Shown piece after piece: positions 310 through 63,227 of a stretch of 64,000 nucleotides of DNA (positions are counted from its first letter, which is position 1; each line of letters begins with the position of its first letter). The stretch is from the IMG/VR virus record IMGVR_UViG_3300001598_000046, positions 1 through 64,000 of that record. One strand, 5' to 3'. The translations under genes and the position numbers were made by a program. This DNA is from a virus (Duplodnaviria > Heunggongvirae > Uroviricota > Caudoviricetes). The notes beneath the pieces were generated by a model. It saw only the letters and a list, made by a program, of their open reading frames with translations. It ran no database searches and was not told the DNA's origin.

Positions 310-786
310 TTATTGTTTTATTGCAGCTAATATATCTTGTGCCCAATTCCATTTATTGCTGATATATAGTCGCATTCTCACATCAATCATATCAAGTGAT
401 ACGCCAAGCAATGCTTCATCGGTAGAGTAATCAGTTGATTTTTTATCTGAAAACCAAGCGACTCTAAATATTGAACTCATCGATGGTTTTTCGTGTAATA
501 GATGCCAACCCAATTTTGAGAATTTACCTTTGACATTCTCTAAATCCTTCATAATTTTATTATATGATCTTGTTGTGGTTGGGGGTGCTGTATAGGTAAT
601 ATTTATGCCAGTCCCATCCGGAGATGGGGCGATTGATTTTATTTTTATTGATGGAAATATATCTTTCTTAAGTATTGCGATAATATCCGGCTTAAGTTTT
701 TCCATCTTTTTGGCAAGATCTTTTGTATCCTTAATAGTCTTATCTGGTGCCTCAATATCGAGGAGGCTTTCATATAAACTTTTCAT
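310..786 (-). CDS. leader-family protein 1 (N-terminus MKSLYESLLDIEAPDKT), function unknown
   Basis: 158-aa ORF; shares conserved N-terminal leader with 5 other ORFs in the window, rest of protein unrelated. Confidence 0.55.
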   Translation of the reverse strand: MKSLYESLLDIEAPDKTIKDTKDLAKKMEKLKPDIIAILKKDIFPSIKIKSIAPSPDGTGINITYTAPPTTTRSYNKIMKDLENVKGKFSKLGWHLLHEKPSMSSIFRVAWFSDKKSTDYSTDEALLGVSLDMIDVRMRLYISNKWNWAQDILAAIKQ

Positions 787-865
787 CTTGAAGTAAAATA
801 TATCTATATAATGATTTCATTAATAATTGAAGGACCTGACTTAAATATATAATCTCTTAATGGTC

Positions 866-1354
866 TCATTTATAATAATTTAATAATTTTTCAAAAACAT
901 CATAACATAATGACCCATCAAGATCAAATCGTATAAAAACTTTAGTACCATTATGATGCATATATATAATACGCAATGCAAAATTAACCATATGTGTTTT
1001 GGTATTCTCACAATTCCAAAGATATTCATCATAATCTTCGTGGTGCCAATCCTTGAAATATGGTACATATTGATATTGTTTCGAAAATTCACCTTTTATC
1101 TGATTTGCAAATGAACTCAATATATCTTTACGTTGCTGATTTGTAAGTGCATTGGCTTCAAGAATAATACTCTTCGTTGTAATTAATTTTCCATTACCCT
1201 CAAGAGCTACGTGTGCAGTCTTAATATATTTTTTAGGGACTGCAGTTTTATAGATCTCAATAATCTTTTCCTTCTGCAGGTCAAAATCCTTTGCATTACT
1301 CATCGTTTTGTCTGCATATGTAGTACTTAACAGACTTTCATATAATGTTTTCAT
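866..1354 (-). CDS. leader-family protein 2 (N-terminus MKTLYESLLSTTYADKT), function unknown
   Basis: 162-aa ORF directly upstream of family member 1; same leader pattern. Confidence 0.55.
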   Translation of the reverse strand: MKTLYESLLSTTYADKTMSNAKDFDLQKEKIIEIYKTAVPKKYIKTAHVALEGNGKLITTKSIILEANALTNQQRKDILSSFANQIKGEFSKQYQYVPYFKDWHHEDYDEYLWNCENTKTHMVNFALRIIYMHHNGTKVFIRFDLDGSLCYDVFEKLLNYYK

Positions 1355-6323: not shown

Positions 6324-6395
6324 TAGGAGGGGTTGGTTTTGATCTCCTACACTTATATATAACAAATGATGATAAAAACTTTAGTCATTTTTATC
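6324..6395 (-). promoter_or_regulatory. 5' leader cassette of gene 6104..6313: hairpin (CTTTAGT loop) - ATATATAACAAA box - hairpin with GGGTTGGTTTTGAT loop
   Basis: Stem TAGGAG(6324-6329)/CTCCTA(6344-6349) with 14-nt loop; box 6355-6366; stem GATAAAAA(6371-6378)/TTTTTATC(6388-6395) with loop CTTTAGTCA. Confidence 0.45.
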
Positions 6396-6542
6396 CGAAT
6401 TTCTTTCGATATTCATACATTGTGGCTCCATCAAACTTGCATTAAGTGGTCGCATATGATAATTACAATAGTTATTATAATGATCTCTATATGGACACAT
6501 TGTGCAATCACCACGTTCTCTATTTTGTGCCATTATCTTATA

Positions 6543-7874
6543 CTAATTTATCTTTGATACCGCATCAAATAATACATCAGGATTAATATTATATTTGACC
6601 TGATTACGCTGCATTTGTTCAATTACTGATTGGAGAATTTGGCTGATACGCGCTATTGATAATCCCTCCTGAGCAGCAATCTCTTTTGGTTCTAATTCAC
6701 GTGGCATACCAATACCAAACTTCTTGAGGAACACTGAACGATCTCTTGGTTTGACACCATCCAATAATTTATCAAGACCATTCTTGAATATATCATATGC
6801 CTCGGCAGCTTCCATATCGGAAACGTGGTCATCCTCCATATTCAATATATCACTAAACTTTGTATCATTATCATCACCGATTGGTGCATCAATATCCAAT
6901 GTCACCTCCTTACGATATGATCCATACTTGAGTTTATCATTATATATATCCGACTTTGGTTTCTTAACCAATCGAGAATAATTATCTATCTCAATCAAGA
7001 TATATGCGCGGATCCACATAAATGCCACAGAGTTGAATGTGGCATTTTTGACATTATGCTTGACCCAAGCAATAACATCATTTCTCATAAATGGTTTCCA
7101 AGTTATTGATGACCAATTTGATGGGATTGGAGTAGCCTCCATATCCTTCAATTCATCATCATTCTTTTGTTCTGTTGATTCGGCAATAGCAATAGATGCG
7201 AAGGCTTTGACAAATTTTTTTCGTATCCCACCATATTTGAGGTATTGTTGGATCTTATTAATAATTTCACCACCATTGGCATTTTCAGGTAATTCCTCCA
7301 ATGCTTCTAACATATCTTCCTTGAGTTTGGCTCTATTTGGATCATATTTTTTGAATGATTCAATCAGGCCATAATTGCCGGCGGAAATAAGTTCCTCCAA
7401 ACTCAAACCCAATCCCTGATATCCTTTGGCAATACTGATAACAGTTTTAAGGTTCATCTCAATAAGTTTATCTCTATTCTCCTCACAATATTCAATATTA
7501 TAGTTATTACCATTCTTATCATATGCCTTACTTACATCACGAAAATATTGTTGTAATGTTCCACGTTCAGCATCAGGGAGCATAGCCTTACTCGTTAATG
7601 CTTCTGCCGCAGAGGATAATGGAATATCATTACTGAGACTATATCTAATAACCGCCGATATATAGAATGATGCATCGGTTTGTGGCTTGAGCTTTATATA
7701 TTTGTTATATGACTCATACAAATCCGGGAGTGAATCAAAAACCGCTTCATTTGTTTTATCTTCATACTCATCAATGAGTTCAACATTGTTCTTCTTTAGA
7801 TTGTCAAACTTCTTCTCAAAAGTTTCATAAACCATCTCATATCTTTCGTATTTTTCATATAACAAATATATCAA
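6543..7874 (-). CDS. RNA polymerase sigma-70 family factor (regions 2 and 4 present, insertion between 2.2 and 2.3)
   Basis: Region 2.2 GNYGLIESFKKYDP; region 2.3/2.4 FNSVAFMWIRAYILIEI..RLVKKP (cf. FSTYATWWIRQAITRAI..RTIRIP); region 4.2 HTH FGIGMP..EIAAQEGLSIARISQILQSVIEQM. Confidence 0.65.
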   Translation of the reverse strand: MIYLLYEKYERYEMVYETFEKKFDNLKKNNVELIDEYEDKTNEAVFDSLPDLYESYNKYIKLKPQTDASFYISAVIRYSLSNDIPLSSAAEALTSKAMLPDAERGTLQQYFRDVSKAYDKNGNNYNIEYCEENRDKLIEMNLKTVISIAKGYQGLGLSLEELISAGNYGLIESFKKYDPNRAKLKEDMLEALEELPENANGGEIINKIQQYLKYGGIRKKFVKAFASIAIAESTEQKNDDELKDMEATPIPSNWSSITWKPFMRNDVIAWVKHNVKNATFNSVAFMWIRAYILIEIDNYSRLVKKPKSDIYNDKLKYGSYRKEVTLDIDAPIGDDNDTKFSDILNMEDDHVSDMEAAEAYDIFKNGLDKLLDGVKPRDRSVFLKKFGIGMPRELEPKEIAAQEGLSIARISQILQSVIEQMQRNQVKYNINPDVLFDAVSKIN

Positions 7875-18951: not shown

Positions 18952-19061
18952 TTGTAGAAGGGGTTGGTTTGGTATCTTCTACAAATATATATAACAAAAG
19001 TTTGAAAAAACTTTAGTGTTTTCAATAACAAACCCTCGAAAAACATTTAGTCTTTCAAGGG
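18952..19061 (-). promoter_or_regulatory. leader cassette upstream of 18556..18945: two CTTTAGT-loop hairpins, ATATATATAACAAAA box, hairpin with GGGTTGGTTTGGTA loop
   Basis: Stem TTGTAGAAG(18952-18960)/TCTTCTACAA(18975-18984), 14-nt loop; box 18985-18999; stems TTGAAAA/TTTTCAA (19002-19025) and CCCTCGAAA/TTTCAAGGG (19033-19061) with loops aactttagtg / aacatttagtc. Confidence 0.45.
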
Positions 19062-19159
19062 TTTATTTTTTGTCATTTGAATTTTCACGCATTGCACCAT
19101 ACATTATGATGCCAAGAGCAATAAATATTGCACCATACTGGATAGCGTCATACCAAAAA

Positions 19160-27313: not shown

Positions 27314-27556
27314 ATGGAAACACACTCAAATAACCACAGATTCTATAATTATAATGCTTGGGAGAATAAATTACATCAACCATACGATTATGAGAGGAAT
27401 GGTTTGCTCAAATATATTCTATCTCATAAATTGGTTGAATCAAAAAATACAACCTTCCAATACCTTCTCAAGTATATCGAAAATTCTTTGATTATTGTTA
27501 TGAAATTTGCTGAGAGGTTGCAACATTTCAAAGACCCAGCATATAGCAATCGCTAA
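27314..27556 (+). CDS. hypothetical protein
   Basis: 80-aa ORF starting 2 nt after the spike gene stop. Confidence 0.3.
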   Translation: METHSNNHRFYNYNAWENKLHQPYDYERNGLLKYILSHKLVESKNTTFQYLLKYIENSLIIVMKFAERLQHFKDPAYSNR

Positions 27557-27566
27557 ATAGCTTATA

Positions 27567-27591
27567 TTTCGCGCATAAACCGCGCTATAAT
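27567..27591 (-). repeat. GC-rich motif ATAGCGCGGTTTATGCGCGAAA, reverse-complement copy (2 of 3)
   Basis: Plus strand reads tttcgcgcataaaccgcgctataat; lies between stop of 27314..27556 and hairpin 27598..27636. Confidence 0.6.
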
Positions 27592-27597
27592 CAAATC

Positions 27598-27636
27598 AAA
27601 ATGGCCAGCCTTACAGTTATGAAGGTTGGCCATTTT
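27598..27636. terminator. bidirectional hairpin terminator
   Basis: AAAATGGCCAGCCTT acagttatg AAGGTTGGCCATTTT between convergent genes. Confidence 0.55.
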
Positions 27637-27656
27637 TATGCGAAATATGAGGGATT

Positions 27657-27989
27657 TTATTCACTTAAATCATCAATCAATTCCTGAATACGTTTTGCAG
27701 ATTTTGCACAATTTTCTTTATCTCCTCGTTTTGTATATTCATCAAGCTGGTTTTGTGCGATTTGTAATTCGATTACCTTTTGGTCATGTGTGGCTCGGGA
27801 AACTTCTCGAAGAGTCTTGGTAAATTCTGCTACCCAATCCAAAGCACCTTTGGAGAAATGGTGATGATCTATACCAATTTCCTTACATAATATGATTGGA
27901 TCGAGGAGGCCAGTCATCTCACATTTTTCTCTCAAAGTTTTCGATGAAAAGAAAAGTGGTACGGCTTCAAAAATTATTTGATCATCCAT
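27657..27989 (-). CDS. hypothetical protein
   Basis: 110-aa ORF. Confidence 0.4.
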   Translation of the reverse strand: MDDQIIFEAVPLFFSSKTLREKCEMTGLLDPIILCKEIGIDHHHFSKGALDWVAEFTKTLREVSRATHDQKVIELQIAQNQLDEYTKRGDKENCAKSAKRIQELIDDLSE

Positions 27990-29570: not shown

Positions 29571-29620
29571 ATATATATAACAAAAGTGGAGGAAACATTT
29601 AGTAGTCTCCTCCACTTTTT
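29571..29620 (-). promoter_or_regulatory. intergenic cassette: conserved-loop hairpin terminator plus ATATATATAACAAAA box
   Basis: Box 29571-29585; stem GTGGAGGA(29586-29593)/TCCTCCAC(29608-29615), loop aacatttagtagtc, T-run. Confidence 0.45.
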
Positions 29621-39464: not shown

Positions 39465-39932
39465 ATGAAATCATTAATTGAAAGTCTTTTGGATGCTGGT
39501 GTGGCTGATAAAACTTTGGATAAAAATATCAAGAATTTTGAAGAGGTAATGTATATCCGCGAGTTGGTTCATAAATATCTTTACGAGCCAACTATTGGTT
39601 TTTCTTACGATGTTACCCCTAAAACCGGTGGTTCTCATTGGTTTAATGAAGAATATGGTGAATATACCATCAAGATGAAAGTTAGTGAACTTAACAGATT
39701 ATATCGTTTAATGGGAAGAGAATTATTGCAACATTTTGGTCAAGATAAGATGCTGGTCGAATTAGATTCTGAACGCGGTGTCAGATATGTTCTTGAATTT
39801 AGATTCAAGATGTTTGAAAAATGTGATAGAAATGGTTGTCTCCCATATCCTAATATAAAAGTGATAATTGCAAAGAACAGTATGGGTAAAATGTTCACAT
39901 ACGTAAAACTACCAAAATTCTTTATACAATGA
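39465..39932 (+). CDS. leader-family protein 3 (N-terminus MKSLIESLLDAGVADKT), function unknown
   Basis: 155 aa; conserved leader, unrelated body. Confidence 0.55.
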   Translation: MKSLIESLLDAGVADKTLDKNIKNFEEVMYIRELVHKYLYEPTIGFSYDVTPKTGGSHWFNEEYGEYTIKMKVSELNRLYRLMGRELLQHFGQDKMLVELDSERGVRYVLEFRFKMFEKCDRNGCLPYPNIKVIIAKNSMGKMFTYVKLPKFFIQ

Positions 39933-45044: not shown

Positions 45045-45620
45045 TCAATCTCTCAACACCAATAGGGTATCCAAATCTCTCATATCCATTAAATGCACCC
45101 ACAATCTACTGATGGTTTCGATGGTGGTGTCTCGGTTAATGCATCTCAAGCAACCAAAAAGAGAATCTCCTGTAGCAACCTCAACCAATCTCTTATTCTT
45201 TCGGTGAGGTCCGATCTCGTTACCCCACATATCGAAGCGAATATCCATTGGCTGTCGGCAACCATCAGCATCAAACGTGTTAATTATCACCTCGTTGTTA
45301 AAAACGTGGCGCACCACACCATACTCCGAACCAAAACAACCATTGCGGTTTGATGTTACAAGAACAGGAGTACCAGCCTCAATACCGTGGAGAGTTCTGT
45401 GGTAATTGAAATTTTCAATCACCGAATGAACAGGTATCTCAACATCCACAGCAGCTCGGAGGGCATTTATCAACTCCTGTCCTGTAATACTGTCGTCAAC
45501 CTCGGCAATAAAACTTCTGCTTGGAACGCCAGCAATCTTCTTTCCTATCTCATTGAAATTTACAATTACCTCGTACTTCATATATTGTCTATTGGAGGGA
45601 TGGTTTGGTATCTCCAACAT
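45045..45620 (-). CDS. hypothetical protein
   Basis: 191-aa ORF. Confidence 0.45.
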   Translation of the reverse strand: MLEIPNHPSNRQYMKYEVIVNFNEIGKKIAGVPSRSFIAEVDDSITGQELINALRAAVDVEIPVHSVIENFNYHRTLHGIEAGTPVLVTSNRNGCFGSEYGVVRHVFNNEVIINTFDADGCRQPMDIRFDMWGNEIGPHRKNKRLVEVATGDSLFGCLRCINRDTTIETISRLWVHLMDMRDLDTLLVLRD

Positions 45621-45672
45621 ATATAGATAACAAAACTTCCCGAAATCTTTAGTAATTCCGGGAAGTTTTTTT
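45621..45672 (-). promoter_or_regulatory. intergenic cassette: conserved-loop hairpin terminator plus ATATAGATAACAAAA box abutting ATG
   Basis: Box 45621-45635 directly adjacent to start codon at 45620; stem CTTCCCG(45636-45642)/CGGGAAG(45659-45665), loop aaatctttagtaattc, T-run. Confidence 0.45.
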
Positions 45673-48774: not shown

Positions 48775-48815
48775 AGTCTATAGGTGAAGGAGTTTTGGTT
48801 TATCTCCCTTACATC

Positions 48816-48865
48816 TATATATAACAAAACCCCCTAAAACATTTAGTAGTTTTAGGGGGTTTTTG
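48816..48865 (-). promoter_or_regulatory. intergenic cassette: conserved-loop hairpin terminator plus TATATATAACAAAA box
   Basis: Box 48816-48829; stem CCCCCTAAAA(48830-48839)/TTTTAGGGGG(48850-48859), loop catttagtag, T-run. Confidence 0.45.
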
Positions 48866-53941: not shown

Positions 53942-54317
53942 TTTGGAGATTAAAGATACTCTTCGAACATTCCGACTTGATCCAACCAAAGGTAATTGGT
54001 TTGAGTATATAATATTTGCATTATTCAAAGTTGATGTCCGAGATATTATATCAATCAAAGCACAACTCGGAAAAGCATTTGGTATCCAACCTGACCAACT
54101 CGATAAAATGCCTTTTTGGGAATTTGAAATGTATGTGCAGGAACTTGAGAAACTTGTTAAAGAAGAGAATGATAGGCAGAAGGATGAATACGAGAAATCT
54201 GGTGTTGGTAAAGCTATGCAGATGGCTGATCCAAAGAATATTGGGAAGACTACACAAAGTATGATGCCAAAGATGCCAAAGATGCCGACAGTGAATATCT
54301 CTATGCCAAAAATGTAA
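53883..54317 (+). CDS. hypothetical protein with C-terminal MPK repeats
   Basis: 144 aa; 5' end overlaps previous ORF so true start may be internal; ends MMPKMPKMPTVNISMPKM. Confidence 0.35.
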   Translation: MASKFSSMLKLVLNDSERNNLEIKDTLRTFRLDPTKGNWFEYIIFALFKVDVRDIISIKAQLGKAFGIQPDQLDKMPFWEFEMYVQELEKLVKEENDRQKDEYEKSGVGKAMQMADPKNIGKTTQSMMPKMPKMPTVNISMPKM

Positions 54318-54324
54318 TAGAAAA

Positions 54325-54349
54325 GGGACTCTCATTGAGTTCCTTTTTT
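54325..54349 (+). terminator. rho-independent terminator
   Basis: GGGACTC tcatt GAGTTCC then TTTTTT. Confidence 0.5.
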
Positions 54350-54396
54350 ATTTTATATTACACCCAAATGATCACTGGATTATTATTTATACATAA

Positions 54397-56109
54397 TTGA
54401 TTACAAATATGAATTGCGCAATAAAGAGAATAATTCAATTCCATAATGCATATGTTCCTGGTCCAATTCAAATCAAGAATCAAATGGGTCAGGACATTAC
54501 AACATACTGCCAATATTCTTGGTCGAATGATATGGTATGTTGGACCAATTGGGTTACATATGATATGTATCTCAAAATTTGTGGGCAATTGAAGGATGAA
54601 ACATATATACGTATTCTTATACAGGATTCAATAGGAATTGTTAAGATCCACGATGTTGCTACAGATTGTTATTCCGTGACGTTGGATCTCGATAACCCTT
54701 TTGAGGTAACAATTTGTAATGATAACCTCTTCAATCCTTATGCAAATCTCGATTGTGCCATTAAACTTCAACAACAAATGGCTGATTCTATAATCTGTAT
54801 GTTTGGTATACCCGTATATTATTTTAGAGTTAAGCCAGACCCAACTACAGCTGACTATACATTTAAGGAGTATTTACTTCATAATATTGAATCAGTTAAG
54901 CAGATCAAAATGATGATTCCTGAGGGCACTATGCCAAGTTCAAATCCTAAATTTAATGCACTCGATTTTGATTGGGAGACTGATTGGGATGTTGAGATTG
55001 GTAAAAATGAATTTGCGAGAGCATTTGGAGATGGCCAAGTTCCAAAAGTTCGTGATTTTATCTATATTCCGATGATGAAACGTATGTGGGATGTTAATTC
55101 AGCATATGATGAGAAGAATGAAAATCTTATGTGGATATCAACAACTTGGAAACTTAGCCTTGTTAAGTATGAGGATGCTACAAACGTAAATGGTACTCCT
55201 GAAATGGAAAGCCTTATTGATTCACTCATACCACATACCTACGAAAATACCTTTGGTGAAAAGGAGAGAACATTATGGGAGCGAACAACTGGTTCAACTC
55301 AAATAAAATCTCCTGATCACGCATATACAAATTTATATGATATATCTATGGGAGACGCAATAAGACAGGCGTATTCGAAAAATGAAATAAATATTGTCGA
55401 TTATCAGTACAACCACAATAGTATGGTGGTTACACGTAATATATATAAATTCAAAACACCATTGGCAAAGGTAACATATCAAAAAGGTTATTGTGGTGCT
55501 AATGGAACACTTGCATTTATATTGCAAACAACTGGAACATCACGAGACGAATTAATATGTAGTAATTGTCGTCAAAAAACAGTATGCCCATACTATAGTG
55601 CTGAAGCTGGTGCAAAATGTTCCGTACCATCAACAATTATCAAATGTGGGCCAATTGATGTTAATCTTACACTTAAACCAATTGCTGGTGGTAATTGTTA
55701 TGAGATTTCTTGTGGTGATATAAAGGGTAATCTGAAGCTTTTTGCAAGTTATCTCGTTATCATCCGTTGGAACCGTCAAAATTATACTGTATCGATGGAA
55801 TGTTACGAGCATATACATCGCACAAATATCCCAACATATATGCTCAAACCTGAGATGTACTCATTTAATGCCACACCAACAATATCTGTAACATCACAAT
55901 ATAATCTCGATTATGATATAACGGAAGAGCAAGATATGTTTATCCAAGCATATCCTTGTCTCCTGACAAATATCAAATTATACAATATTGATTTGGGTCG
56001 TGAAGGTGCGATTAAAGAATCTCTTAAATATGTAACACAACATAAAAATATCATAATTAATGACCTCGCTCGTCCAATCGAGAGTGGCCAGGGTTATACA
56101 GCAAGATAA
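54397..56109 (+). CDS. hypothetical protein (570 aa)
   Basis: Long ORF; its last ~63 codons are duplicated as a fragment at 57165..57350. Confidence 0.5.
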   Translation: MITNMNCAIKRIIQFHNAYVPGPIQIKNQMGQDITTYCQYSWSNDMVCWTNWVTYDMYLKICGQLKDETYIRILIQDSIGIVKIHDVATDCYSVTLDLDNPFEVTICNDNLFNPYANLDCAIKLQQQMADSIICMFGIPVYYFRVKPDPTTADYTFKEYLLHNIESVKQIKMMIPEGTMPSSNPKFNALDFDWETDWDVEIGKNEFARAFGDGQVPKVRDFIYIPMMKRMWDVNSAYDEKNENLMWISTTWKLSLVKYEDATNVNGTPEMESLIDSLIPHTYENTFGEKERTLWERTTGSTQIKSPDHAYTNLYDISMGDAIRQAYSKNEINIVDYQYNHNSMVVTRNIYKFKTPLAKVTYQKGYCGANGTLAFILQTTGTSRDELICSNCRQKTVCPYYSAEAGAKCSVPSTIIKCGPIDVNLTLKPIAGGNCYEISCGDIKGNLKLFASYLVIIRWNRQNYTVSMECYEHIHRTNIPTYMLKPEMYSFNATPTISVTSQYNLDYDITEEQDMFIQAYPCLLTNIKLYNIDLGREGAIKESLKYVTQHKNIIINDLARPIESGQGYTAR

Positions 56110-56110
56110 T

Positions 56111-56974
56111 ATGAAATCACTTTACGAAAGCTTACTCGGTATCACAAATGATGATATTGATAAAACAAACCTGAAACTTCTATGGAATCAATTACAATTG
56201 GATATTAAGGGTACGGAGAAAAAACCACGTATTAATTTTCTACAAATCAAAAATAATAATGCTGGAGAACTCTCCTGTTATTGCTCAATTCCACAAGGGA
56301 GATTGGGTAGAGGCCCACAAATTGATGATATACCAAGTTTAACAAAACTTTTTCCTGCTGGTATTGAAGCAAAAAGATTACAAATTAGTAAAAATTGTGA
56401 TCATAAATTATCTGAACTTGCGGCACTTAATATCAAAGTAAACGAATATAAGATTGATGGTTACGATACTGAGGAAAGTTTAGCAAAATTGGATATTCAA
56501 GTACCATCAGTATACTGTGATGCCGCTGCACTTATCACAGATAATTTACTTCAACGAATATCCAAATATACCGACAAGATTAGACTTGATGCTTGTATGG
56601 AATTTCACGGTTGGAGAAAAATGGAAGATTTGAAGAAATTATCTAATTGTCCATTTGATGTTATGATCATTAATAAAGGTGCATATCTTTTTGGATTGGA
56701 TCAACCAAGAAAAAATACTGTGACAATCGGAGATTACCTTGAAGGTCATCTTAATATTAATGGAACTCCAAGAGAGGGGCAATTTGTATATCGTGATAGT
56801 TCTCAGCAACAACATTATAATGGGTTTAAGAGTAAACTTGCCGATTGGATTAAACGAAATCCAAAAACAACTCTTATAATGAGTTGGGGTGGTACAATGG
56901 AAAAAATTTCATTGGACTCAAAGGGTGAACTCACCACAACAAAAATAACCGATCGAGAAATTAATAAATTATGA
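56111..56974 (+). CDS. leader-family protein 4 (N-terminus MKSLYESLLGITNDDIDKT), function unknown
   Basis: Start ATG 1 nt after stop of upstream gene (ORF track extends it upstream to 56060 in the same frame). Confidence 0.55.
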   Translation: MKSLYESLLGITNDDIDKTNLKLLWNQLQLDIKGTEKKPRINFLQIKNNNAGELSCYCSIPQGRLGRGPQIDDIPSLTKLFPAGIEAKRLQISKNCDHKLSELAALNIKVNEYKIDGYDTEESLAKLDIQVPSVYCDAAALITDNLLQRISKYTDKIRLDACMEFHGWRKMEDLKKLSNCPFDVMIINKGAYLFGLDQPRKNTVTIGDYLEGHLNINGTPREGQFVYRDSSQQQHYNGFKSKLADWIKRNPKTTLIMSWGGTMEKISLDSKGELTTTKITDREINKL

Positions 56975-57162
56975 AAAGCCTTTATGAAAGTTTATTAGGA
57001 TCTACTGAAGATACAATTGATACCACGAATAAGAAATATGCAGAATATGTAGATTTCTGTGATAAATCAAAAGAATTGTATGATGCCTTTTGGTCTGAAT
57101 TTGAACACAAGGCCATCAAACTCGGTATAGCCAAACGAGACTTCAATAATAGTACGATATAA
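56971..57162 (+). CDS. leader-family protein 5, short (N-terminus MKSLYESLLGSTEDTIDTT)
   Basis: 63 aa; ATGA overlap with member 4; possibly truncated. Confidence 0.4.
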   Translation: MKSLYESLLGSTEDTIDTTNKKYAEYVDFCDKSKELYDAFWSEFEHKAIKLGIAKRDFNNSTI

Positions 57163-57164
57163 CT

Positions 57165-57350
57165 GAGGAGCAAGATGTATTTATCCATGCATATCCTTGC
57201 CTTCTTACCAATATTAAACTTTATAATATTGATCTTGGTAAAGATGATTCGATTAAAGAATCGTTAAAATACGTAACAAAAAACAAAAATATTATAATCA
57301 ACGACCTTGCACGTCCAATGGAAAGTGGTCTTGGTTATGCAGTAAAATAA
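57165..57350 (+). pseudogene. start-less duplicated fragment of the 3' end of gene 54397..56109
   Basis: Translates TEEQDVFIHAYPCLLTNIKLYNIDLGKDDSIKESLKYVTKNKNIIINDLARPMESGLGYAVK vs gene C-terminus TEEQDMFIQAYPCLLTNIKLYNIDLGREGAIKESLKYVTQHKNIIINDLARPIESGQGYTAR; no in-frame start. Confidence 0.5.
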
Positions 57351-57352
57351 TT

Positions 57353-57871
57353 ATGAAATCTCTTATAGAAAGTATTTTGGATTCAAATCTTGCTGACAAA
57401 GGTACGATCAGTGCTGAAAAGGCTCAAAAGGCAATGAGCATAATTCGTGACGTTTTTGAAAAATTGCTTAATACCGACAAATTCACAATAGAAGTTTGGA
57501 TACCGGAACAACCTGATAAAGTTCGTGGTGTTATGAAATATAAATTCAACGCAAGTGCTCCTAACGATACTAAAAATGACTATATTGAGCAGAGAAAATA
57601 TTATCAAGAAGTCATTGTCAGTAGTGTCAAGGAACTGAAAAAGATGAATAAGTATCTCGACATGGATCCTCAGGAGGCATATAGTAGCCGCCCATACGAG
57701 AACAGAAATTTGTTTTTGACCAACTCACAACCAATAGTCAACTACACGGATTCAATGATTAGTGTAATGGGTAACTCCAATAGTGATTTTTTCGATATGT
57801 TAGTTGGTGATTGCTTCGTATCTACCCTTGAAGAAGTAATTAAAAAGAATAAAAAGATCATAATTCATTGA
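57353..57871 (+). CDS. leader-family protein 6 (N-terminus MKSLIESILDSNLADKGT), function unknown
   Basis: 172 aa; start 2 nt after stop of the pseudogene fragment, mirroring junction at 56109/56111. Confidence 0.55.
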   Translation: MKSLIESILDSNLADKGTISAEKAQKAMSIIRDVFEKLLNTDKFTIEVWIPEQPDKVRGVMKYKFNASAPNDTKNDYIEQRKYYQEVIVSSVKELKKMNKYLDMDPQEAYSSRPYENRNLFLTNSQPIVNYTDSMISVMGNSNSDFFDMLVGDCFVSTLEEVIKKNKKIIIH

Positions 57872-57960
57872 TTAGTAAAACAAAAGATGGACGAGTAGTC
57901 ATTTTTGATTGGTTCGATCCATATTATTATAATGGATAAAATTCTCTCATATTTCGAATA

Positions 57961-57999
57961 AAATGGGCTGGCCTTCATAGTTGTAAGGCCAGCCCATTT
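57961..57999. terminator. bidirectional hairpin terminator
   Basis: Perfect 15-bp inverted repeat AAATGGGCTGGCCTT catagttgt AAGGCCAGCCCATTT between convergent genes. Confidence 0.6.
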
Positions 58000-58008
58000 G
58001 AATTGAAT

Positions 58009-58029
58009 ATAGCGCGGTTTATGCGCAAA
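58009..58029 (+). repeat. GC-rich 21-mer ATAGCGCGGTTTATGCGCAAA (copy 3 of 3)
   Basis: Identical to 284-304; followed by partial echo GCGATGTTTATGCGTGC. Confidence 0.6.
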
Positions 58030-58040
58030 ATAAGCGATGT

Positions 58041-58580
58041 TTATGCGTGCTGTGATTCCAATGCAATAGTCTTATCGATAATTGCAATGCGTTCCTCGAC
58101 TGTTCCGCGAACCTCAACGTATGGGATATCCAACTCCTGAAGCAGTGTAAGAATGTTGTTATCGATACACTGACGGAACTCCTCGTCCATTGAACGAACA
58201 CCATCATCAACAACTGGGAACTCGATTGGGAAGTAAAAATAGATGAAATCCTGATGGTTGTGCACGAACTCGTCAAGCGCACTTGCTTGTAACTCCATAT
58301 ACTCCGGTGAGAGTTTACCAATATCACAAAGATGCATTGTATATGCAGTCACATCAGTAAGACCACGATCCGAGATAAATTCGGGCATCTCAGCAAACTG
58401 CTTACAATACTCCGCAAAAATTGCCTCTTGACCCTTGGCATCACCAGCTTCATTTATATTAATACCCTGTTTAGCGAGGTTACGAACAACCTCAGTGATA
58501 ACTGGCATACCCTTTTCACGATAATGATTAAGGATTGTTGTTTTGCCAGTTCCTTGTGCACCTGTTAGAATAATCTTCAT
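58041..58580 (-). CDS. P-loop NTPase / small kinase
   Basis: MKIILTGAQGTGKTTIL Walker A at N-terminus; 179 aa. Confidence 0.5.
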   Translation of the reverse strand: MKIILTGAQGTGKTTILNHYREKGMPVITEVVRNLAKQGININEAGDAKGQEAIFAEYCKQFAEMPEFISDRGLTDVTAYTMHLCDIGKLSPEYMELQASALDEFVHNHQDFIYFYFPIEFPVVDDGVRSMDEEFRQCIDNNILTLLQELDIPYVEVRGTVEERIAIIDKTIALESQHA

Positions 58581-58625
58581 AATGAGTTTTTGATTTATAT
58601 AATATATGCTATTTTGACCATAATT

Positions 58626-59609
58626 TTATACAGATTCAATAACTTGTTTGAATTTCTTTTCAAGATGTTTTGGTATCAACTCTTTGCAAATGGTATTAAT
58701 ATCATATGTCTCAAGTATATCTCCATCAAATGATATAGAATCGATTATTGGTATGACCGTAAAATTACGACATATATTGGATATTTCCTTAATACGTTCC
58801 TGATAACGGCCATCAGAAAGATTTGCTTGATTTATATAGAGCTCATAATAATCAATTGCATTGAACTCCTGATCAAATATTGTTTCATTCTTGAGACGCC
58901 AAAATTTGATTGCACCTTTGTTTGTGTATGGTAGGAGTTGTTCATCATCATAAATATAGAAAAAACGATCGTGGTTAGCATCATTGAAATCAAGTGGGAA
59001 ACAGCTGCCAAGATTATATAAGTTATCCTTGAATTGTGGTGTATGAATATGACCGGCGAATACTTTACAACCACGCAACTCCTCAATAGGTTTCTTATCA
59101 GCTCCAAAAATATCAGCGTGAGTGTAGATATTTCGAGCATTAGGGTGCTCATCCAAAATTTTGGTCAAATCATACTTATACTGATACCACGGAATATATA
59201 AATCAACAAAATTATTCGAAAATACCTCATCAATAACCAAATGAAGATTCTTACCACAATCCCTAAATACCATTGATAATGATTCATACTCCGCAGAGTT
59301 TGGTGAATAGAAATCGTGATTGCCGGCAATTATGAAGAAATCATCCGCATATTTTGCGATCTCAATAAAACATTCACGAACCTCCTTCGCGACATATGGT
59401 GAAATACTTGAACGAGAATCAAATACATCACCAAGATGGATTATTGTGGTTTTTGGGTGTTCTTTAAGATATGGTATAATTTGTCTTCGTAGAAATGCTA
59501 TCTGTGAGTTGAGCCAAGTTGTTGAGTTCTGTTTCCATCCAAAATGTGTATCAGTTAATAGTAATCGGTTCATTTGGTAAATCAATTTTTTTATTATGAT
59601 TCTCAACAA
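58626..59609 (-). CDS. calcineurin-like metallophosphoesterase (SbcD/Mre11-like possible)
   Basis: LLLTDTHFG, HLGDVFD, AGNHDF motifs; 327 aa; no Rad50-like partner seen adjacent. Confidence 0.6.
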   Translation of the reverse strand: MLRIIIKKLIYQMNRLLLTDTHFGWKQNSTTWLNSQIAFLRRQIIPYLKEHPKTTIIHLGDVFDSRSSISPYVAKEVRECFIEIAKYADDFFIIAGNHDFYSPNSAEYESLSMVFRDCGKNLHLVIDEVFSNNFVDLYIPWYQYKYDLTKILDEHPNARNIYTHADIFGADKKPIEELRGCKVFAGHIHTPQFKDNLYNLGSCFPLDFNDANHDRFFYIYDDEQLLPYTNKGAIKFWRLKNETIFDQEFNAIDYYELYINQANLSDGRYQERIKEISNICRNFTVIPIIDSISFDGDILETYDINTICKELIPKHLEKKFKQVIESV

Positions 59610-60159
59610 CTCTCAGATATGCGCGTTTAATAATATCACGATCAAGTGATCCATTTTGTACCGTACAACCAGCAAGTTTTAGTCCATTGAGAATACCCTC
59701 GAAAAGGCTTGCCACGTATATTTCGAGTTCGTGGAGATTTGAGATATCAACTTCAATTTTTTTGAGAATATCATATTGGATACCTTCAACCAAATGATCA
59801 AAAATGAAATTTTCGATTTCATCAAACTCGAAATCATATTGATCATCATCTTTGACAATATATCCCCGTCTTTTATACCAATCCGCACACCATTGTTCTT
59901 TGGCAATGATATTAATTGGAAGTACGGCGAAGATACCATTTTTTGTACAATATTGATCGCGTGCTGTATCACAAGCATCCAATAATTCCGTTGCAAGGCC
60001 TTGTTCACGATATTTTTCATTAACGAATAAATCACTTATCCAAATCTTCTTATTTGGAAGGATAGTGAGTCGTACATATGCTTTACCGGGGATCATAAAA
60101 TAGTGGCATTCATCTATATTGTCATTATGCCACGTTGAGCAGAAATGTTTAATATTCAT
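59551..60159 (-). CDS. GNAT-family N-acetyltransferase
   Basis: Motif A-like VNEKYREQGLATELLDA; 202 aa; 5' end overlaps upstream gene so start may be internal. Confidence 0.5.
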   Translation of the reverse strand: MNIKHFCSTWHNDNIDECHYFMIPGKAYVRLTILPNKKIWISDLFVNEKYREQGLATELLDACDTARDQYCTKNGIFAVLPINIIAKEQWCADWYKRRGYIVKDDDQYDFEFDEIENFIFDHLVEGIQYDILKKIEVDISNLHELEIYVASLFEGILNGLKLAGCTVQNGSLDRDIIKRAYLRVVENHNKKIDLPNEPITIN

Positions 60160-60356
60160 ATCTTCTTCACATCTTCAATTGTCATACCAGTTCTTTCAGT
60201 GAACTCGGCAAGTTCTTCAGGAGATAAATTTTTGAGTATCTCCAAAAGTCTCTTTTTCTTTTTGTTCGCCTTTATACGAAATATGATGGCGGCTATGGAG
60301 GTTACACAACATAACCCCCATAGTATCCAAAATAATATTGAAAATATATCTCCCAT
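60156..60356 (-). CDS. small membrane protein
   Basis: 66 aa; ILFWILWGLCCVTSIAAIIF. Confidence 0.3.
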   Translation of the reverse strand: MGDIFSILFWILWGLCCVTSIAAIIFRIKANKKKKRLLEILKNLSPEELAEFTERTGMTIEDVKKI

Positions 60357-60358
60357 AT

Positions 60359-61831
60359 TTATCTACAATATATTACCATTCGAGCAATACGGCTTGCGAA
60401 ATGTTCAACAGATTCATTATCATAGAACATATGTTCGCTTTGGTATCGATCAAATTTATAATCAAATGCTTTCTCAATAGTCATCGCAATTTCAGCCATA
60501 TCAAGACTATCAAAACCGAATACTCCAAGAGGCTTCTTGATGAATGAATCATATTGATCCATTGGCATCCACCGATCGTGAATATATCCACCCCATTCAT
60601 TTTCTTGCCACAAGATATTTATGATAAAATCTCTTGCACATTCTTCATTTGTTTTTTGAATGTTTGCTTGTGTGGTATTTGATTCATGATCAACTTCACC
60701 GGTTGGACCAAGTTGGGTTTCCGGCTTATCAATAGTCATCTCCTCAAATTGTTTCTTTTGTTCAGGTGTGAGAAGATTTTTGAGGATCTCATTTTCAAGA
60801 GCAATATGCTCAGGTTCTTTTTGTAATTGAGGTGCTCGCGGAGTAACCGCATACATATCATTGAGTTTTTGATTAAACTCATCATTGAATGCTTTGCGTT
60901 GCTCAGGAGTAATGAAAGCCATCAAAGCATCAAATTGAGCTCTCAAATCACTCAAACTATGCTTCAATTCTTCAATATCCAAATCCACCAATGAAATCAT
61001 CCTACCACCAGTCAATTCGAATTGCTCGGAGATTTTTTGTTTGATTATCTCCCACGAGATTGGTCCATAGTTGTTATTATCCACTCCAACATCATATTGT
61101 GTTGGGAGTTTGAATTTGAGACGACCAGCATCTGCACCACCCGAACCATCTTTTGAGTGTACATGCCCAAATAATTGCCATACCTTTTCAGAATCTTTGC
61201 GATAGATGCCACCGTATGTTAGGAATGGATAATGGTTAAGATATACGGCACGACCTTCGATCTCGATTTGGCGCTGGAATGTAACACTATCAAAATATTG
61301 CATATATCCTTGACGAATATTCTTGACATCGTGATTACCAAGCACCAAATGGATATGGCCGTTCAAATGTTCGAGAATCCACACCCAATTACTTGAGCCA
61401 CCCCAACAAAAATCACCCAAATGGTAGACGATATCATCAGGCCCAACGATACTATTCCACTTCTCCACAAGTGCCTTGTTCATCTCCTCAACAGTTGCGA
61501 ATGGGCGACCACAAAATTTTATGATGTTCTCGTGACAGAAGTGAGTATCGGAGGTGAACCAAATATGATCTCCATTTTTATAGATCTCCTTGTCGTCATT
61601 CTTATTGAATCGACTATTATACTTGGAGTGAACTTCACTAATAGTACGATTATATTTTCTCCAAGTTGGATCATTTGGTGCATATAACTCATCGAATTTT
61701 GCACTCATCCCATTAGCCAATATAACAAAATCTTCAGCGATTTGTATAATTGGACTTACGAGTGTTGGTGACGAGCGGTCATATGCCACAGCGAATCCTA
61801 TTAATAATTCATTCTTTTTCATCTTTGCCAA
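60359..61831 (-). CDS. metallophosphoesterase with C-terminal acyl-carrier-protein-like domain
   Basis: TSDTHFCH, HLGDFCWGG, VLGNHD motifs N-terminally; C-terminal LGVFGFDSLDMAEIAMTIEKAFDYKF resembles PP-binding DSLD motif. Confidence 0.55.
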   Translation of the reverse strand: MAKMKKNELLIGFAVAYDRSSPTLVSPIIQIAEDFVILANGMSAKFDELYAPNDPTWRKYNRTISEVHSKYNSRFNKNDDKEIYKNGDHIWFTSDTHFCHENIIKFCGRPFATVEEMNKALVEKWNSIVGPDDIVYHLGDFCWGGSSNWVWILEHLNGHIHLVLGNHDVKNIRQGYMQYFDSVTFQRQIEIEGRAVYLNHYPFLTYGGIYRKDSEKVWQLFGHVHSKDGSGGADAGRLKFKLPTQYDVGVDNNNYGPISWEIIKQKISEQFELTGGRMISLVDLDIEELKHSLSDLRAQFDALMAFITPEQRKAFNDEFNQKLNDMYAVTPRAPQLQKEPEHIALENEILKNLLTPEQKKQFEEMTIDKPETQLGPTGEVDHESNTTQANIQKTNEECARDFIINILWQENEWGGYIHDRWMPMDQYDSFIKKPLGVFGFDSLDMAEIAMTIEKAFDYKFDRYQSEHMFYDNESVEHFASRIARMVIYCR

Positions 61832-63142: not shown

Positions 63143-63198
63143 AATGGATAATTAATTGATTACATTATATATATAACAAATCTTAATAAAATATTTAG

Positions 63199-63227
63199 CA
63201 ATAAAAAAGGGTTTCTTGCGAAACCCT
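63199..63227 (-). terminator. rho-independent terminator for gene 63232..63846
   Basis: Minus sense GGGTTTC gcaa GAAACCC followed by TTTTTTATT. Confidence 0.55.

What the first reader, a model, noticed from the sequence alone, without database searches (positions are those of the whole stretch)
55921..57400. Diverged segmental duplication of the junction 'gene 3' end - stop - leader-gene start', leaving a start-less pseudogene fragment between tandem leader genes
The last ~63 codons of gene 54397..56109 plus the following junction and MKSL start (about 55921-56160) recur at 57163-57400 at roughly 80% nucleotide identity. The second copy translates to TEEQDVFIHAYPC...GLGYAVK with no upstream start, so it is a remnant. 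It is followed after 2 nt by leader gene 6, just as leader gene 4 follows the intact gene after 1 nt. The locus therefore looks like a cassette array built by repeated recombination using the upstream-gene tail and the leader as homology arms. This is the architecture expected for a rapidly shuffling effector locus and is comparable to T4 hyperplastic internal-protein regions.
Basis: seen in the sequence. Interest (0 to 1): 0.6.

Follow-up and report, generated by a model that had tools for sequence, protein, structure and literature searches.

The report
Recombination scar in phage cargo-gene array
A 199-base spare copy of the end of a phage neck-protein gene sits between small variable genes. 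It is most likely the leftover of one sloppy recombination that added a gene from a related phage, which is an ordinary kind of scar in a variable phage locus.

Summary
Window 55912-56110 recurs at 57153-57351, ungapped and 79% identical, and it is the longest repeat in the 64 kb. Each copy is followed by a stop, 1-2 nt, and an 'MKSL.ES' gene start. The second copy has no start codon, and its frame is closed just upstream by TAA TAG.

It is not an old decaying pseudogene. dN/dS is 0.11, 28 of 42 differences are at third codon positions, and every family-conserved residue is kept.

The 63-codon gene upstream ends on an out-of-frame TAA inside the repeat, so two gene stumps abut at about 57150-57153.

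The full gene encodes a T4 gp14-like neck protein with a lectin-like C-terminal beta-sandwich. The copied tail is only the last few strands and one helix of that domain.

About 35 related loci each carry a single tail. They hold 0-4 leader genes between the neck gene and whatever conserved gene comes next (0-3 where that is the convergent AAA_28/phosphoesterase block).

Best reading: one non-homologous crossover with an ~80%-identical relative, or a lost paralogue, added gene 57353-57871 and left the scar.

The 'homology arm' mechanism is not supported. This is a new member of a known kind and of modest interest.

The parts
54409..56109 (+). Neck-protein gene: T4 gp14-like N-terminal part plus a lectin-like beta-sandwich C-terminal part. 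The mechanical ORF starts at TTG 54397. Homologues and the JGI gene call start at ATG 54409 (566 aa).
   Evidence: PHROG 679 'head closure Hc2' E = 9e-9 and PF11649 (weak). Foldseek finds the T4 portal-neck-tail complex 9mkb and gp14 chains 9lu4-7, and legume lectins for the C-terminal part. 777 homologues; the closest non-self one is 56% identical.
55912..56109 (+). Copy A: the last 65 codons plus the stop of the intact neck gene.
56111..56974 (+). Leader gene, 287 aa (MKSLYESLLGITNDDIDKTN...). Its start lies 1 nt after the neck-gene stop. No known family.
56971..57162 (+). Leader gene stump, 63 aa. It shares its first ~21 residues with the 287-aa gene. Its last codons and its TAA (57160-57162) lie inside copy B in another frame, so it is probably the 5' remnant of a longer gene. 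It has no homologue anywhere.
57150..57153 (.). Breakpoint of the non-homologous junction between the leader-gene stump and the neck-gene tail.
   Evidence: Similarity to copy A begins at 57153. Stops TAA TAG at 57147-57152 close the tail's frame.
57153..57350 (+). Copy B: start-less 65-codon tail of a second neck gene plus its stop (TAA 57348-57350). No stops or indels. All family-conserved residues are kept.
57353..57871 (+). Leader gene, 172 aa (MKSLIESILDSNLADKGT...). It is an ORFan of a different leader subtype from its two neighbours and is presumed to have arrived together with copy B.
57930..58043 (.). Intergenic element with a bidirectional terminator hairpin and the motif ATAGCGCGGTTTATGCGC. 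It closes the rightward operon and is repeated at 27554-27667 (inverted) and 271-307.
58041..58580 (-). Convergent AAA_28 NTPase gene, the conserved right flank of the variable site. It is followed by a metallophosphoesterase gene at 58626-59609.
39465..39932 (+). Leader gene, 155 aa, starting 2 nt after a baseplate-wedge (gp6-like) gene. Its leader is the closest in the window to that of 57353.
310..1354 (-). Two tandem leader genes (866-1354 and 310-786) downstream of a helicase gene (1382-3142).

Best explanation
The window comes from an uncultured T4-superfamily myovirus. Its distant isolated relatives are jumbo phages of Bacteroidota and Sphingomonas. In its lineage, the stretch after the neck-protein gene is a variable site that holds 0-4 small 'leader' genes; here its right flank is a convergent AAA_28/phosphoesterase block. 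Leader genes begin MK[ST]L.ES[IL][LI] and otherwise have unrelated bodies.

The start-less 65-codon fragment at 57153-57350 is a recombination scar. A single non-homologous, probably microhomology-level, crossover joined the 5' part of a resident leader gene (now the 63-codon stump) to a point 65 codons before the end of a second neck gene. That second gene was about 80% identical and most likely lay in a co-infecting relative. Its own downstream cargo gene was the 172-aa gene at 57353.

The recombinant kept its own intact neck gene and its 287-aa cargo gene. It gained the foreign cargo gene and carries the foreign neck-gene tail as dead weight.

Shown: the duplication, the absence of a start, the closed upstream frame, the stump's stop lying inside the copied block, and selection-shaped divergence with no detectable decay.

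Inferred: the inter-genome origin, the microhomology mechanism and the non-expression of the fragment.

One consequence, also inferred: because copy B is still a perfect in-frame tail, a crossover between the two direct copies would cleanly delete the 1241 nt between them. That would leave a working chimeric neck gene followed directly by the 172-aa gene.
For: 1. The 199-nt, 79% ungapped repeat is the longest in the window.
2. The frame of copy B is closed by TAA TAG at 57147-52 and has no start codon.
3. The 63-aa gene's stop (57160-62) is an out-of-frame TAA of the copied block. That gene has no homologue among 1.84 billion representative proteins.
4. dN/dS = 0.11 with dS about 1.15; 28 of 42 differences are at third positions. 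In 20,000 simulations of 42 random substitutions, none gave 13 or fewer aa changes without a stop.
5. Against 119 outgroup tails, derived replacements split about evenly between A and B. Both keep every invariant or >=90% conserved residue. The two share derived states absent from all outgroups (e.g. Ile where 119/119 have Cys), so they are sister lineages and B shows no relaxation.
6. The genes following the two tails are unrelated beyond the leader and carry different leader subtypes, which a simple tandem duplication does not explain.
7. The closest relatives (L003/L004) have no gene between the neck gene and AAA_28, while others have 1-4 leader genes after the neck gene. L009 and L017 (75-85% nt identical) differ by two tandem leader genes.
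8. About 35 related loci each have a single tail.
9. The same architecture appears in two other assemblies.
10. The AlphaFold model places the last 65 residues as a few strands plus one helix within the C-terminal beta-rich region, whose fold resembles ~230-260-residue lectin jelly-rolls. It is therefore not an autonomous unit.
11. T4 is documented to make duplications and deletions at 6-10 bp microhomologies (PMC9391042).
Against: No donor-type genome was found, meaning a neck gene ending in a copy-B-like tail followed by a homologue of the 172-aa gene. The 172-aa gene is an ORFan, and the nearest sampled neck gene is only 56% identical.

The perfect preservation of copy B is also what continued function would produce. 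With only two near-identical population variants (6 SNPs, none in the fragment), post-event constraint cannot be measured.

An origin from a second neck paralogue in the same genome, followed by an internal deletion, gives the same final structure and cannot be told apart with the present data.

The parental sequences at the junction are unknown, so microhomology could not be demonstrated.
Confidence: 0.6

Rival explanations
1. Same-genome origin. An ancestor carried two complete, functional neck-gene paralogues in tandem, each followed by its own leader gene. A later internal deletion, from inside the third gene to 65 codons before the end of the second neck gene, left the present structure.
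For: It yields exactly the observed stump-to-tail junction. It explains dN/dS = 0.11, because both copies would have been functional while diverging. T4-type phages readily make microhomology deletions (PMC9391042). A and B are each other's closest relatives.
Against: None of about 35 related loci shows a second neck gene or tail within 5-6 kb. A neck protein is a single-copy stoichiometric virion part in T4 (own knowledge). Maintaining two long enough to reach dS of about 1 would be unusual.
Confidence: 0.2
2. Local tandem duplication of the junction within this genome, after which the start-less copy drifted as a pseudogene.
For: The copies are direct, close together (1241 nt apart) and are each other's nearest relatives.
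Against: A neutral copy should push pairwise dN/dS towards about 0.5 and accumulate stops, indels and changes at conserved sites. Observed: dN/dS of 0.11, no stop, no indel, no conserved residue lost, and derived changes no more frequent in B than in A. The genes after the two copies are unrelated.
Confidence: 0.07
3. The fragment is still expressed and functional. One route is fusion to the 63-aa leader peptide, if tRNA-Ile re-pairs +2 on the overlapping AUA-UA-A at 57157-57162. Another is initiation at a non-canonical codon.
For: The reading frame is intact and all conserved residues are kept. ATATAA at 57157-57162 offers an identical AUA codon 2 nt downstream that leads into the fragment's frame, with a stop codon in the A site (read).
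Against: There is no canonical start. The frame is closed 1 codon upstream of the fragment. There is no X XXY YYZ slippery heptamer. The same GATATAAC is simply inherited from the neck gene (copy A has it too). The 65 residues are only part of a larger beta-sandwich domain. The arrangement is unique to this lineage.
Confidence: 0.05
4. Assembly artefact: two co-occurring strains with different cargo genes were stitched together by the assembler.
For: The data are metagenomic. The two tails are about 80% identical, as strain variants could be.
Against: The junction is not at a shared k-mer (the longest exact run between the copies is 13 nt). The same structure occurs in a JGI contig that differs by 6 SNPs and in a Logan contig assembled from run SRR1221442.
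Confidence: 0.03

Closest known systems
T-even phage internal-protein (IP) loci with the capsid targeting sequence: T4 ipI/ipII/ipIII, CTS MKTYQEFIAE (Repoila et al. 1994 as cited in PMC3012670 and PMC2839356; sequence in PMC8442874)
   Same: Small genes with unrelated bodies share only a short conserved N-terminal peptide. They sit in arrays at sites whose content differs between related phages, in a T4-superfamily genome. The leader resembles the T4 CTS in outline (MKT.QE.I..) and carries an L-x-E motif like the T4 prohead-protease sites (the protease motif is from my own knowledge).
   Different: No sequence homology to T4 IPs was detected. Packaging, cleavage and ejection are untested. The leaders here extend to about 17 residues (...ADKT). 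The genes are appended directly (1-2 nt; 27 nt after the helicase) to the 3' ends of conserved genes (neck, baseplate wedge, helicase) rather than sitting in promoter-flanked early-gene regions.
PeSL (promoter-early stem-loop) cassette shuffling in T4-type phages RB49/phi1 (Arbiol et al. 2010, PMC2839356; Comeau et al. 2014, PMC4122927)
   Same: ORFan genes are gained and lost at defined 'acceptable' sites between conserved core genes. Repeated regulatory elements occur at cassette borders; here a 114-nt terminator element recurs at three places.
   Different: PeSL exchange is homologous recombination between repeated intergenic motifs and leaves clean junctions. Here there are no intergenic motifs between the cassettes, and the left junction is non-homologous, cutting two genes.
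Microhomology-mediated segmental amplification and deletion in T4 (Srikant et al. 2022, PMC9391042)
   Same: Recombination at a few bases of homology creates duplications and deletions that cut through genes in accessory regions of a T4-type genome. It provides a documented mechanism for the stump-to-tail junction.
   Different: Those events are fresh, identical tandem copies made under laboratory selection. Here the two copies are 21% diverged under purifying selection, which implies different parental genes rather than a fresh in-genome copy.
T4 neck protein gp14 (PF11649; PDB 9mkb, 9lu4-9lu7)
   Same: The N-terminal half of the duplicated gene's product matches gp14 by profile and by fold.
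   Different: The protein is more than twice as long (566 vs about 256 aa) because of a C-terminal lectin-like beta-sandwich. The duplicated tail belongs to this extra domain.

Membership tests
Gene-fragment scar of non-homologous recombination | Two copies with similarity far beyond chance, one of them partial | tested here: met
   199 nt, 79%, ungapped. tblastn E = 6e-33. Copy B covers only residues 506-570 of the 570-aa ORF.
Gene-fragment scar of non-homologous recombination | The partial copy lacks a start and its frame is closed upstream | tested here: met
   TAA TAG at 57147-52. The first canonical start codon is 10 codons before the stop.
Gene-fragment scar of non-homologous recombination | The junction joins unrelated sequence, with a neighbouring gene also truncated | tested here: inconclusive
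   The 63-aa gene ends on an out-of-frame TAA inside the copied block and is the shortest leader gene seen in the window and in the related loci examined. However, no full-length homologue exists to prove truncation.
Decaying pseudogene | Relaxed selection: dN/dS near 1 on the copy, plus stops, indels or loss of conserved residues | tested here: not met
   dN/dS 0.11, no stop or indel, all conserved residues kept, derived changes balanced between A and B.
T4-type internal-protein / CTS cassette locus | A short conserved N-terminal peptide shared by otherwise unrelated small proteins | tested here: met
   Six genes in the window and many in related loci start MK[ST]L.ES[IL][LI]. The bodies are unrelated or ORFan.
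T4-type internal-protein / CTS cassette locus | Locus content varies between related phages between conserved flanks | tested here: met
   0, 1, 2 or 3 leader genes between the neck gene and the AAA_28/phosphoesterase block. Elsewhere, 2 vs 4 between the neck gene and the next conserved gene in L009/L017.
T4-type internal-protein / CTS cassette locus | Homology of the leader or the proteins to T4 IPs | tested here: not met
   No Pfam, PHROG, NCBIfam or PDB hit for any leader protein. No tblastn hit of a 25-aa leader in 50,697 phage records. The resemblance to MKTYQEFIAE is by eye only.
T4-type internal-protein / CTS cassette locus | Leader cleaved by the prohead protease; protein packaged in the head and ejected | not testable with these tools
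   Needs virion proteomics or N-terminal sequencing. No prohead protease gene was found among the ORFs of the window that were scanned against PHROGs.
PeSL-type cassette shuffling | Cassettes flanked by repeated promoter plus stem-loop motifs that serve as crossover sites | tested here: not met
   Genes in the array abut or overlap (1 nt, ATGA overlap, 2 nt). No repeated intergenic motif lies between them. A repeated terminator element exists only at the right border.
Programmed ribosomal frameshift fusion | A slippery site in the overlap window between the two frames | tested here: not met
   The only open window is 57153-57160 (AGT ACG ATA TAA). It has no X XXY YYZ heptamer; only an AUA/AUA +2 re-pairing possibility.
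Switchable C-terminal cassette (Mu Gin / P1 Cin type, shufflon) | Alternative 3' gene segments in inverted orientation with a site-specific recombinase | tested here: not met
   The copies are direct, not inverted. No recombinase was detected among the neighbouring genes scanned.

The most novel reading that the evidence does not exclude
The MK[ST]L.ES[IL][LI] leader is a capsid-targeting and processing signal analogous to the T4 CTS. On this reading, a large uncultured clade of T4-like phages found in gut-type metagenomes hangs arrays of head-packaged, injected effector proteins directly onto the 3' ends of conserved genes. The neck-gene tail scar would be direct evidence that such effectors are traded between diverged relatives by imprecise recombination. 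The still-intact tail would double as a ready substrate for precise loss of the older cassettes.
Probability: 0.3. Interest if true: 0.55.

Novelty: new member of a known kind. Interest (0 to 1): 0.3.

Why it matters
The scar dates and orients a gene-gain event. A foreign cargo gene arrived together with the last 65 codons of the donor's neck gene. This shows that variable loci in these uncultured T4-like phages are fed by exchange between relatives that are only about 80% identical, through imprecise joins rather than clean homology-guided swaps.

It also flags a family of leader-tagged ORFan genes: six in this window and up to four in tandem in relatives. These are reasonable candidates for packaged, injected anti-defence proteins. 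The duplication itself adds no new principle.

Tried and rejected
- **Donor genome, first search.** I searched 5.8 billion proteins with copy B for a neck gene with a B-like end. It returned five hits, all 48-85-aa products. Where I checked the contigs, these were contig-edge or scaffold-gap truncations of ordinary full-length neck genes, not independent fragments.
- **Donor genome, second search.** Homologues of the 172-aa gene: only itself. Homologues of the 63-aa stump among 1.84 billion representatives: only itself plus two repeat-protein chance hits.
- **Recurrence of a second tail.** None in 18 IMG/VR loci or 14 metagenome loci.
- **Programmed frameshift.** Rejected, because there is no slippery site and the frame is closed upstream.
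- **Leader DNA as a recombination arm.** Rejected, because exact runs are at most 11 nt and synonymous variation is abundant.
- **Function of leader proteins.** Pfam, PHROGs, NCBIfam and PDB gave nothing.
- **The leader in isolated phages.** tblastn with a 25-aa leader gave no match.
- **The leader strings in the literature.** No paper holds them.
- **Rfam and tRNA scans of the window.** Nothing found.
- **Promoter and terminator scan of the array.** Counts were at shuffle level.
- **The 30-aa hydrophobic ORF at 57175-57267 inside the fragment.** It is absent from copy A, and the substitution pattern favours the neck-gene frame, so I treat it as a chance ORF.
- **Repoila et al. 1994.** The paper could not be read and is cited only through papers that describe it.
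Full report
**1. The observation**

The repeat is real. The repeat finder reports 55912-56110 and 57153-57351 as a 199-nt ungapped direct repeat at 79% identity. In a scan of the whole 64-kb window it is by far the longest direct repeat; the next is 62 nt. MAFFT gives the same block.

Translated, the two copies are 80% identical over 65 residues, with tblastn E = 6e-33.

Copy A is the last 65 codons of the ORF 54397..56109. Copy B reads YDITEEQDVFIHAYPC...GLGYAVK and ends at TAA 57348-57350. Its frame is closed immediately upstream by TAA TAG (57147-57152). Its first canonical start codon is a Met ten codons before the stop. Each copy is followed by a leader-gene ATG after 1 nt or 2 nt.

- The block starts about 9 nt earlier than stated, and similarity stops about 20 nt into the leader rather than 50 nt.
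- The leader portion is not specifically part of the duplication. The two leaders match at 20/30 nt, inside the 18-25/30 range seen between any two of the six leader genes in the window. The leader at 57353 is most like the one at 39465.

**2. Not an artefact**

A JGI contig (L023) covers window 54293-61310 with 6 SNPs, none in the fragment. A Logan contig from run SRR1221442 (L024) is identical over 6489 nt. Both have the same gene order, and gene callers leave the fragment uncalled.

**3. What the duplicated gene is**

The product matches PHROG 679 'head closure Hc2' (E = 9e-9) and, weakly, Pfam T4_neck-protein.

An AlphaFold model built on 94 sequences has mean pLDDT 79, and above 90 over most of the C-terminal third. 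Its Foldseek hits fall into two groups:
- the T4 portal-neck-tail complex (9mkb) and the gp14 chains of 9lu4-9lu7;
- for the C-terminal part, legume lectins and similar jelly-rolls.

The last 65 residues are a few strands plus one helix within that C-terminal beta-rich region, so they are not an autonomous domain.

The window is a T4-superfamily genome. It encodes terminase, a gp2-like DNA end protector, a gp6-like baseplate wedge, a B-family DNA polymerase, SSB, an SbcD-like nuclease, RNA ligase and a sigma factor. The nearest isolated relatives of the neck gene are jumbo phages of Tenacibaculum, Chryseobacterium and Sphingomonas, at 24-38% identity. The family has 777 metagenomic homologues, and the closest non-self one is 56% identical.

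**4. How the two copies diverged**

- Of 42 nucleotide differences, 28 are at third codon positions and only 13 change the amino acid.
- Nei-Gojobori estimates give dN = 0.13, dS = 1.15 and dN/dS = 0.11.
- In 20,000 simulations of 42 random substitutions, none gave 13 or fewer replacements without a stop.
- I aligned both copies with 119 outgroup tails. Both keep every invariant position (N20, E36, Y40, T42, D51, R54, G61) and every position conserved at 90% or more.
- Replacements that can be polarised are split about evenly. A is derived at H12Q, A63T and V64A. B is derived at H44N, I56M and Q43K.
- The two copies share states absent from all outgroups, for example Ile where 119 of 119 have Cys.

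So A and B are sister sequences, and B shows no sign of relaxed selection. Essentially all of their divergence accumulated while both were ends of working neck genes. The truncation is therefore recent relative to the divergence. This rules out the simple picture of a local duplication whose start-less copy then drifted.

**5. The left junction**

The 63-codon leader gene 56971..57162 runs into the copied block. Its last codons and its stop TAA (57160-57162) are an out-of-frame reading of GATATAAC, which in copy A encodes D-I-T. This gene is the shortest leader gene seen in the window and in the related loci I examined. It shares only its first ~21 residues with its neighbour. It has no homologue among 1.84 billion representative proteins.

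The simplest reading is that two stumps abut at 57150-57153: the 5' part of a leader gene and the 3' part of a neck gene. That is the signature of a non-homologous join. T4 is documented to make duplications and deletions at 6-10 bp microhomologies (PMC9391042). The parental sequences are unknown here, so microhomology could not be shown.

**6. The locus in relatives**

In the two closest relatives (L003, L004; 57% neck identity), the neck gene is followed after about 106 nt by the convergent AAA_28 gene and the metallophosphoesterase gene, with no leader gene at all.

- L008, L001 and L005-7 have one or two genes there.
- L009 and L017 have two versus four tandem leader genes between the neck gene and the next conserved gene. 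They are 75-85% identical in nucleotide sequence across the neck gene and its surroundings. Their blastn pattern is what unequal crossing-over between paralogous neighbours would give.
- More distant relatives run straight from the neck gene into a 748-aa gene.

So the site is a true variable cassette site. None of about 35 related loci (18 from IMG/VR, 14 from metagenomes, a few from protein look-ups) has a second tail. The scar is a one-off.

**7. Mechanism**

The genes behind the two tails are unrelated beyond the leader and belong to different leader subtypes...SLLG.T.D.ID.TN versus ...S[IL]LD...ADK.T. With section 4, this favours the following history.

A phage with neck-287aa-(longer ancestor of the 63-aa gene) recombined, at a non-homologous point, with a second neck gene about 80% identical that was followed by the 172-aa gene. 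Most likely this gene lay in a co-infecting relative. Everything to the right then came from that partner.

A same-genome version gives the same end product and cannot be excluded: two neck paralogues followed by an internal deletion. No relative shows two neck genes, however.

Because copy B is still a perfect in-frame tail, recombination between the two direct copies would delete 1241 nt and leave a working chimeric neck gene directly followed by the 172-aa gene. That is a prediction, not an observation. The longest exact run between the copies is only 13 nt.

**8. Is the fragment expressed?**

Nothing supports expression:
- There is no start codon.
- The frame is closed one codon upstream.
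- The only window in which a ribosome could change frame (57153-57160) lacks a slippery heptamer.

One formal possibility remains. ATATAA at 57157-57162 offers an identical AUA codon 2 nt downstream, with a stop in the A site. But the same sequence is inherited from the neck gene, and 65 residues of a larger beta-sandwich are unlikely to fold alone. I put this at about 5%.

**9. The leader genes**

Six genes in the window start MK[ST]L.ES[IL]L. They lie at 310-786(-), 866-1354(-), 39465, 56111, 56971 and 57353. Each group follows a conserved gene (helicase, baseplate wedge, neck) by 1-27 nt.

The leader is conserved as protein with free synonymous variation. None of the proteins matches Pfam, PHROGs, NCBIfam or the PDB. 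The leader was not found in 50,697 isolated-phage records or in the literature.

The nearest analogy is the T4 capsid targeting sequence MKTYQEFIAE. It is shared by otherwise diverse internal proteins at variable loci (PMC3012670, PMC8442874; Repoila 1994 as described in PMC2839356). This is a resemblance and not a tested membership, because packaging and cleavage cannot be assessed here.

**10. Verdict**

- It is partly wrong: the tail and the leader did not act as homology arms, the event is not a repeated process, and the copy is not a drifted pseudogene.

This is a recombination scar of a familiar kind in a variable locus of a T4-like phage. It is informative about how that locus gains genes, but it is not a new kind of element.

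Noticed in passing
window 57930-58043; 27554-27667 (inverted); 271-307: A ~114-nt intergenic element is repeated at three places: 77% over 114 nt, and 89% over 37 nt. It contains a strong bidirectional terminator hairpin (GGGCTGGCCTT...AAGGCCAGCCC) followed by the invariant motif ATAGCGCGGTTTATGCGC. Two copies lie just past the 3' ends of leader-gene arrays. No Rfam family matches. It may be a mobile terminator module or the right-hand border of cassette sites.
   Followed up: partly
window 6329-6400, 18961-19066, 29572-29618, 45597-45668, 48791-48862, 63168-63214: There are six copies of an intergenic motif, TATATATAACAAA-[variable G+C stem-loop]-TTTAGT. Four of them have a further conserved ~25 nt upstream. 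It looks like a composite terminator/promoter element, reminiscent of the PeSL motifs of T4-type phages. The window also encodes a phage sigma factor (6543-7874).
   Followed up: no
window 310-786(-), 866-1354(-), 39465-39932(+), 56111-57871(+); L001, L005-7, L009, L017, L019, L021: A family of small ORFan genes shares only the N-terminal peptide MK[ST]L.ES[IL][LI](D/G/S). The genes sit right behind conserved genes, with up to four in tandem in relatives. There is no match in Pfam, PHROGs, NCBIfam, PDB, isolated phages or the literature. They are candidates for head-packaged proteins by analogy with the T4 CTS.
   Followed up: partly
window 54409-56109: The gp14-like neck protein is more than twice the length of T4 gp14. 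This is due to a confidently modelled C-terminal beta-sandwich whose fold matches legume lectins and a phage tailspike domain. It suggests a carbohydrate-binding decoration at the neck.
   Followed up: partly
window 57175-57267 (+): A 30-codon hydrophobic ORF (MYLSMHILAFLPILNFIILILVKMIRLKNR) lies inside the fragment, in the frame of the 63-aa gene and 12 nt after that gene's stop. The equivalent frame of copy A is closed. It is probably a chance ORF in AT-rich sequence.
   Followed up: partly
L009 3560-3715 versus L017: L009 has about 155 nt between the neck gene and the first leader gene that its ~80%-identical relative L017 lacks. This may be another small indel or scar at the same site. It holds no tail-like sequence.
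   Followed up: no
window 56060-56110: Gene callers (JGI, Logan) start the 287-aa leader gene at ATG 56060, giving 304 aa and overlapping the neck gene by 50 nt. Family conservation of the leader places the true start at ATG 56111.
   Followed up: yes
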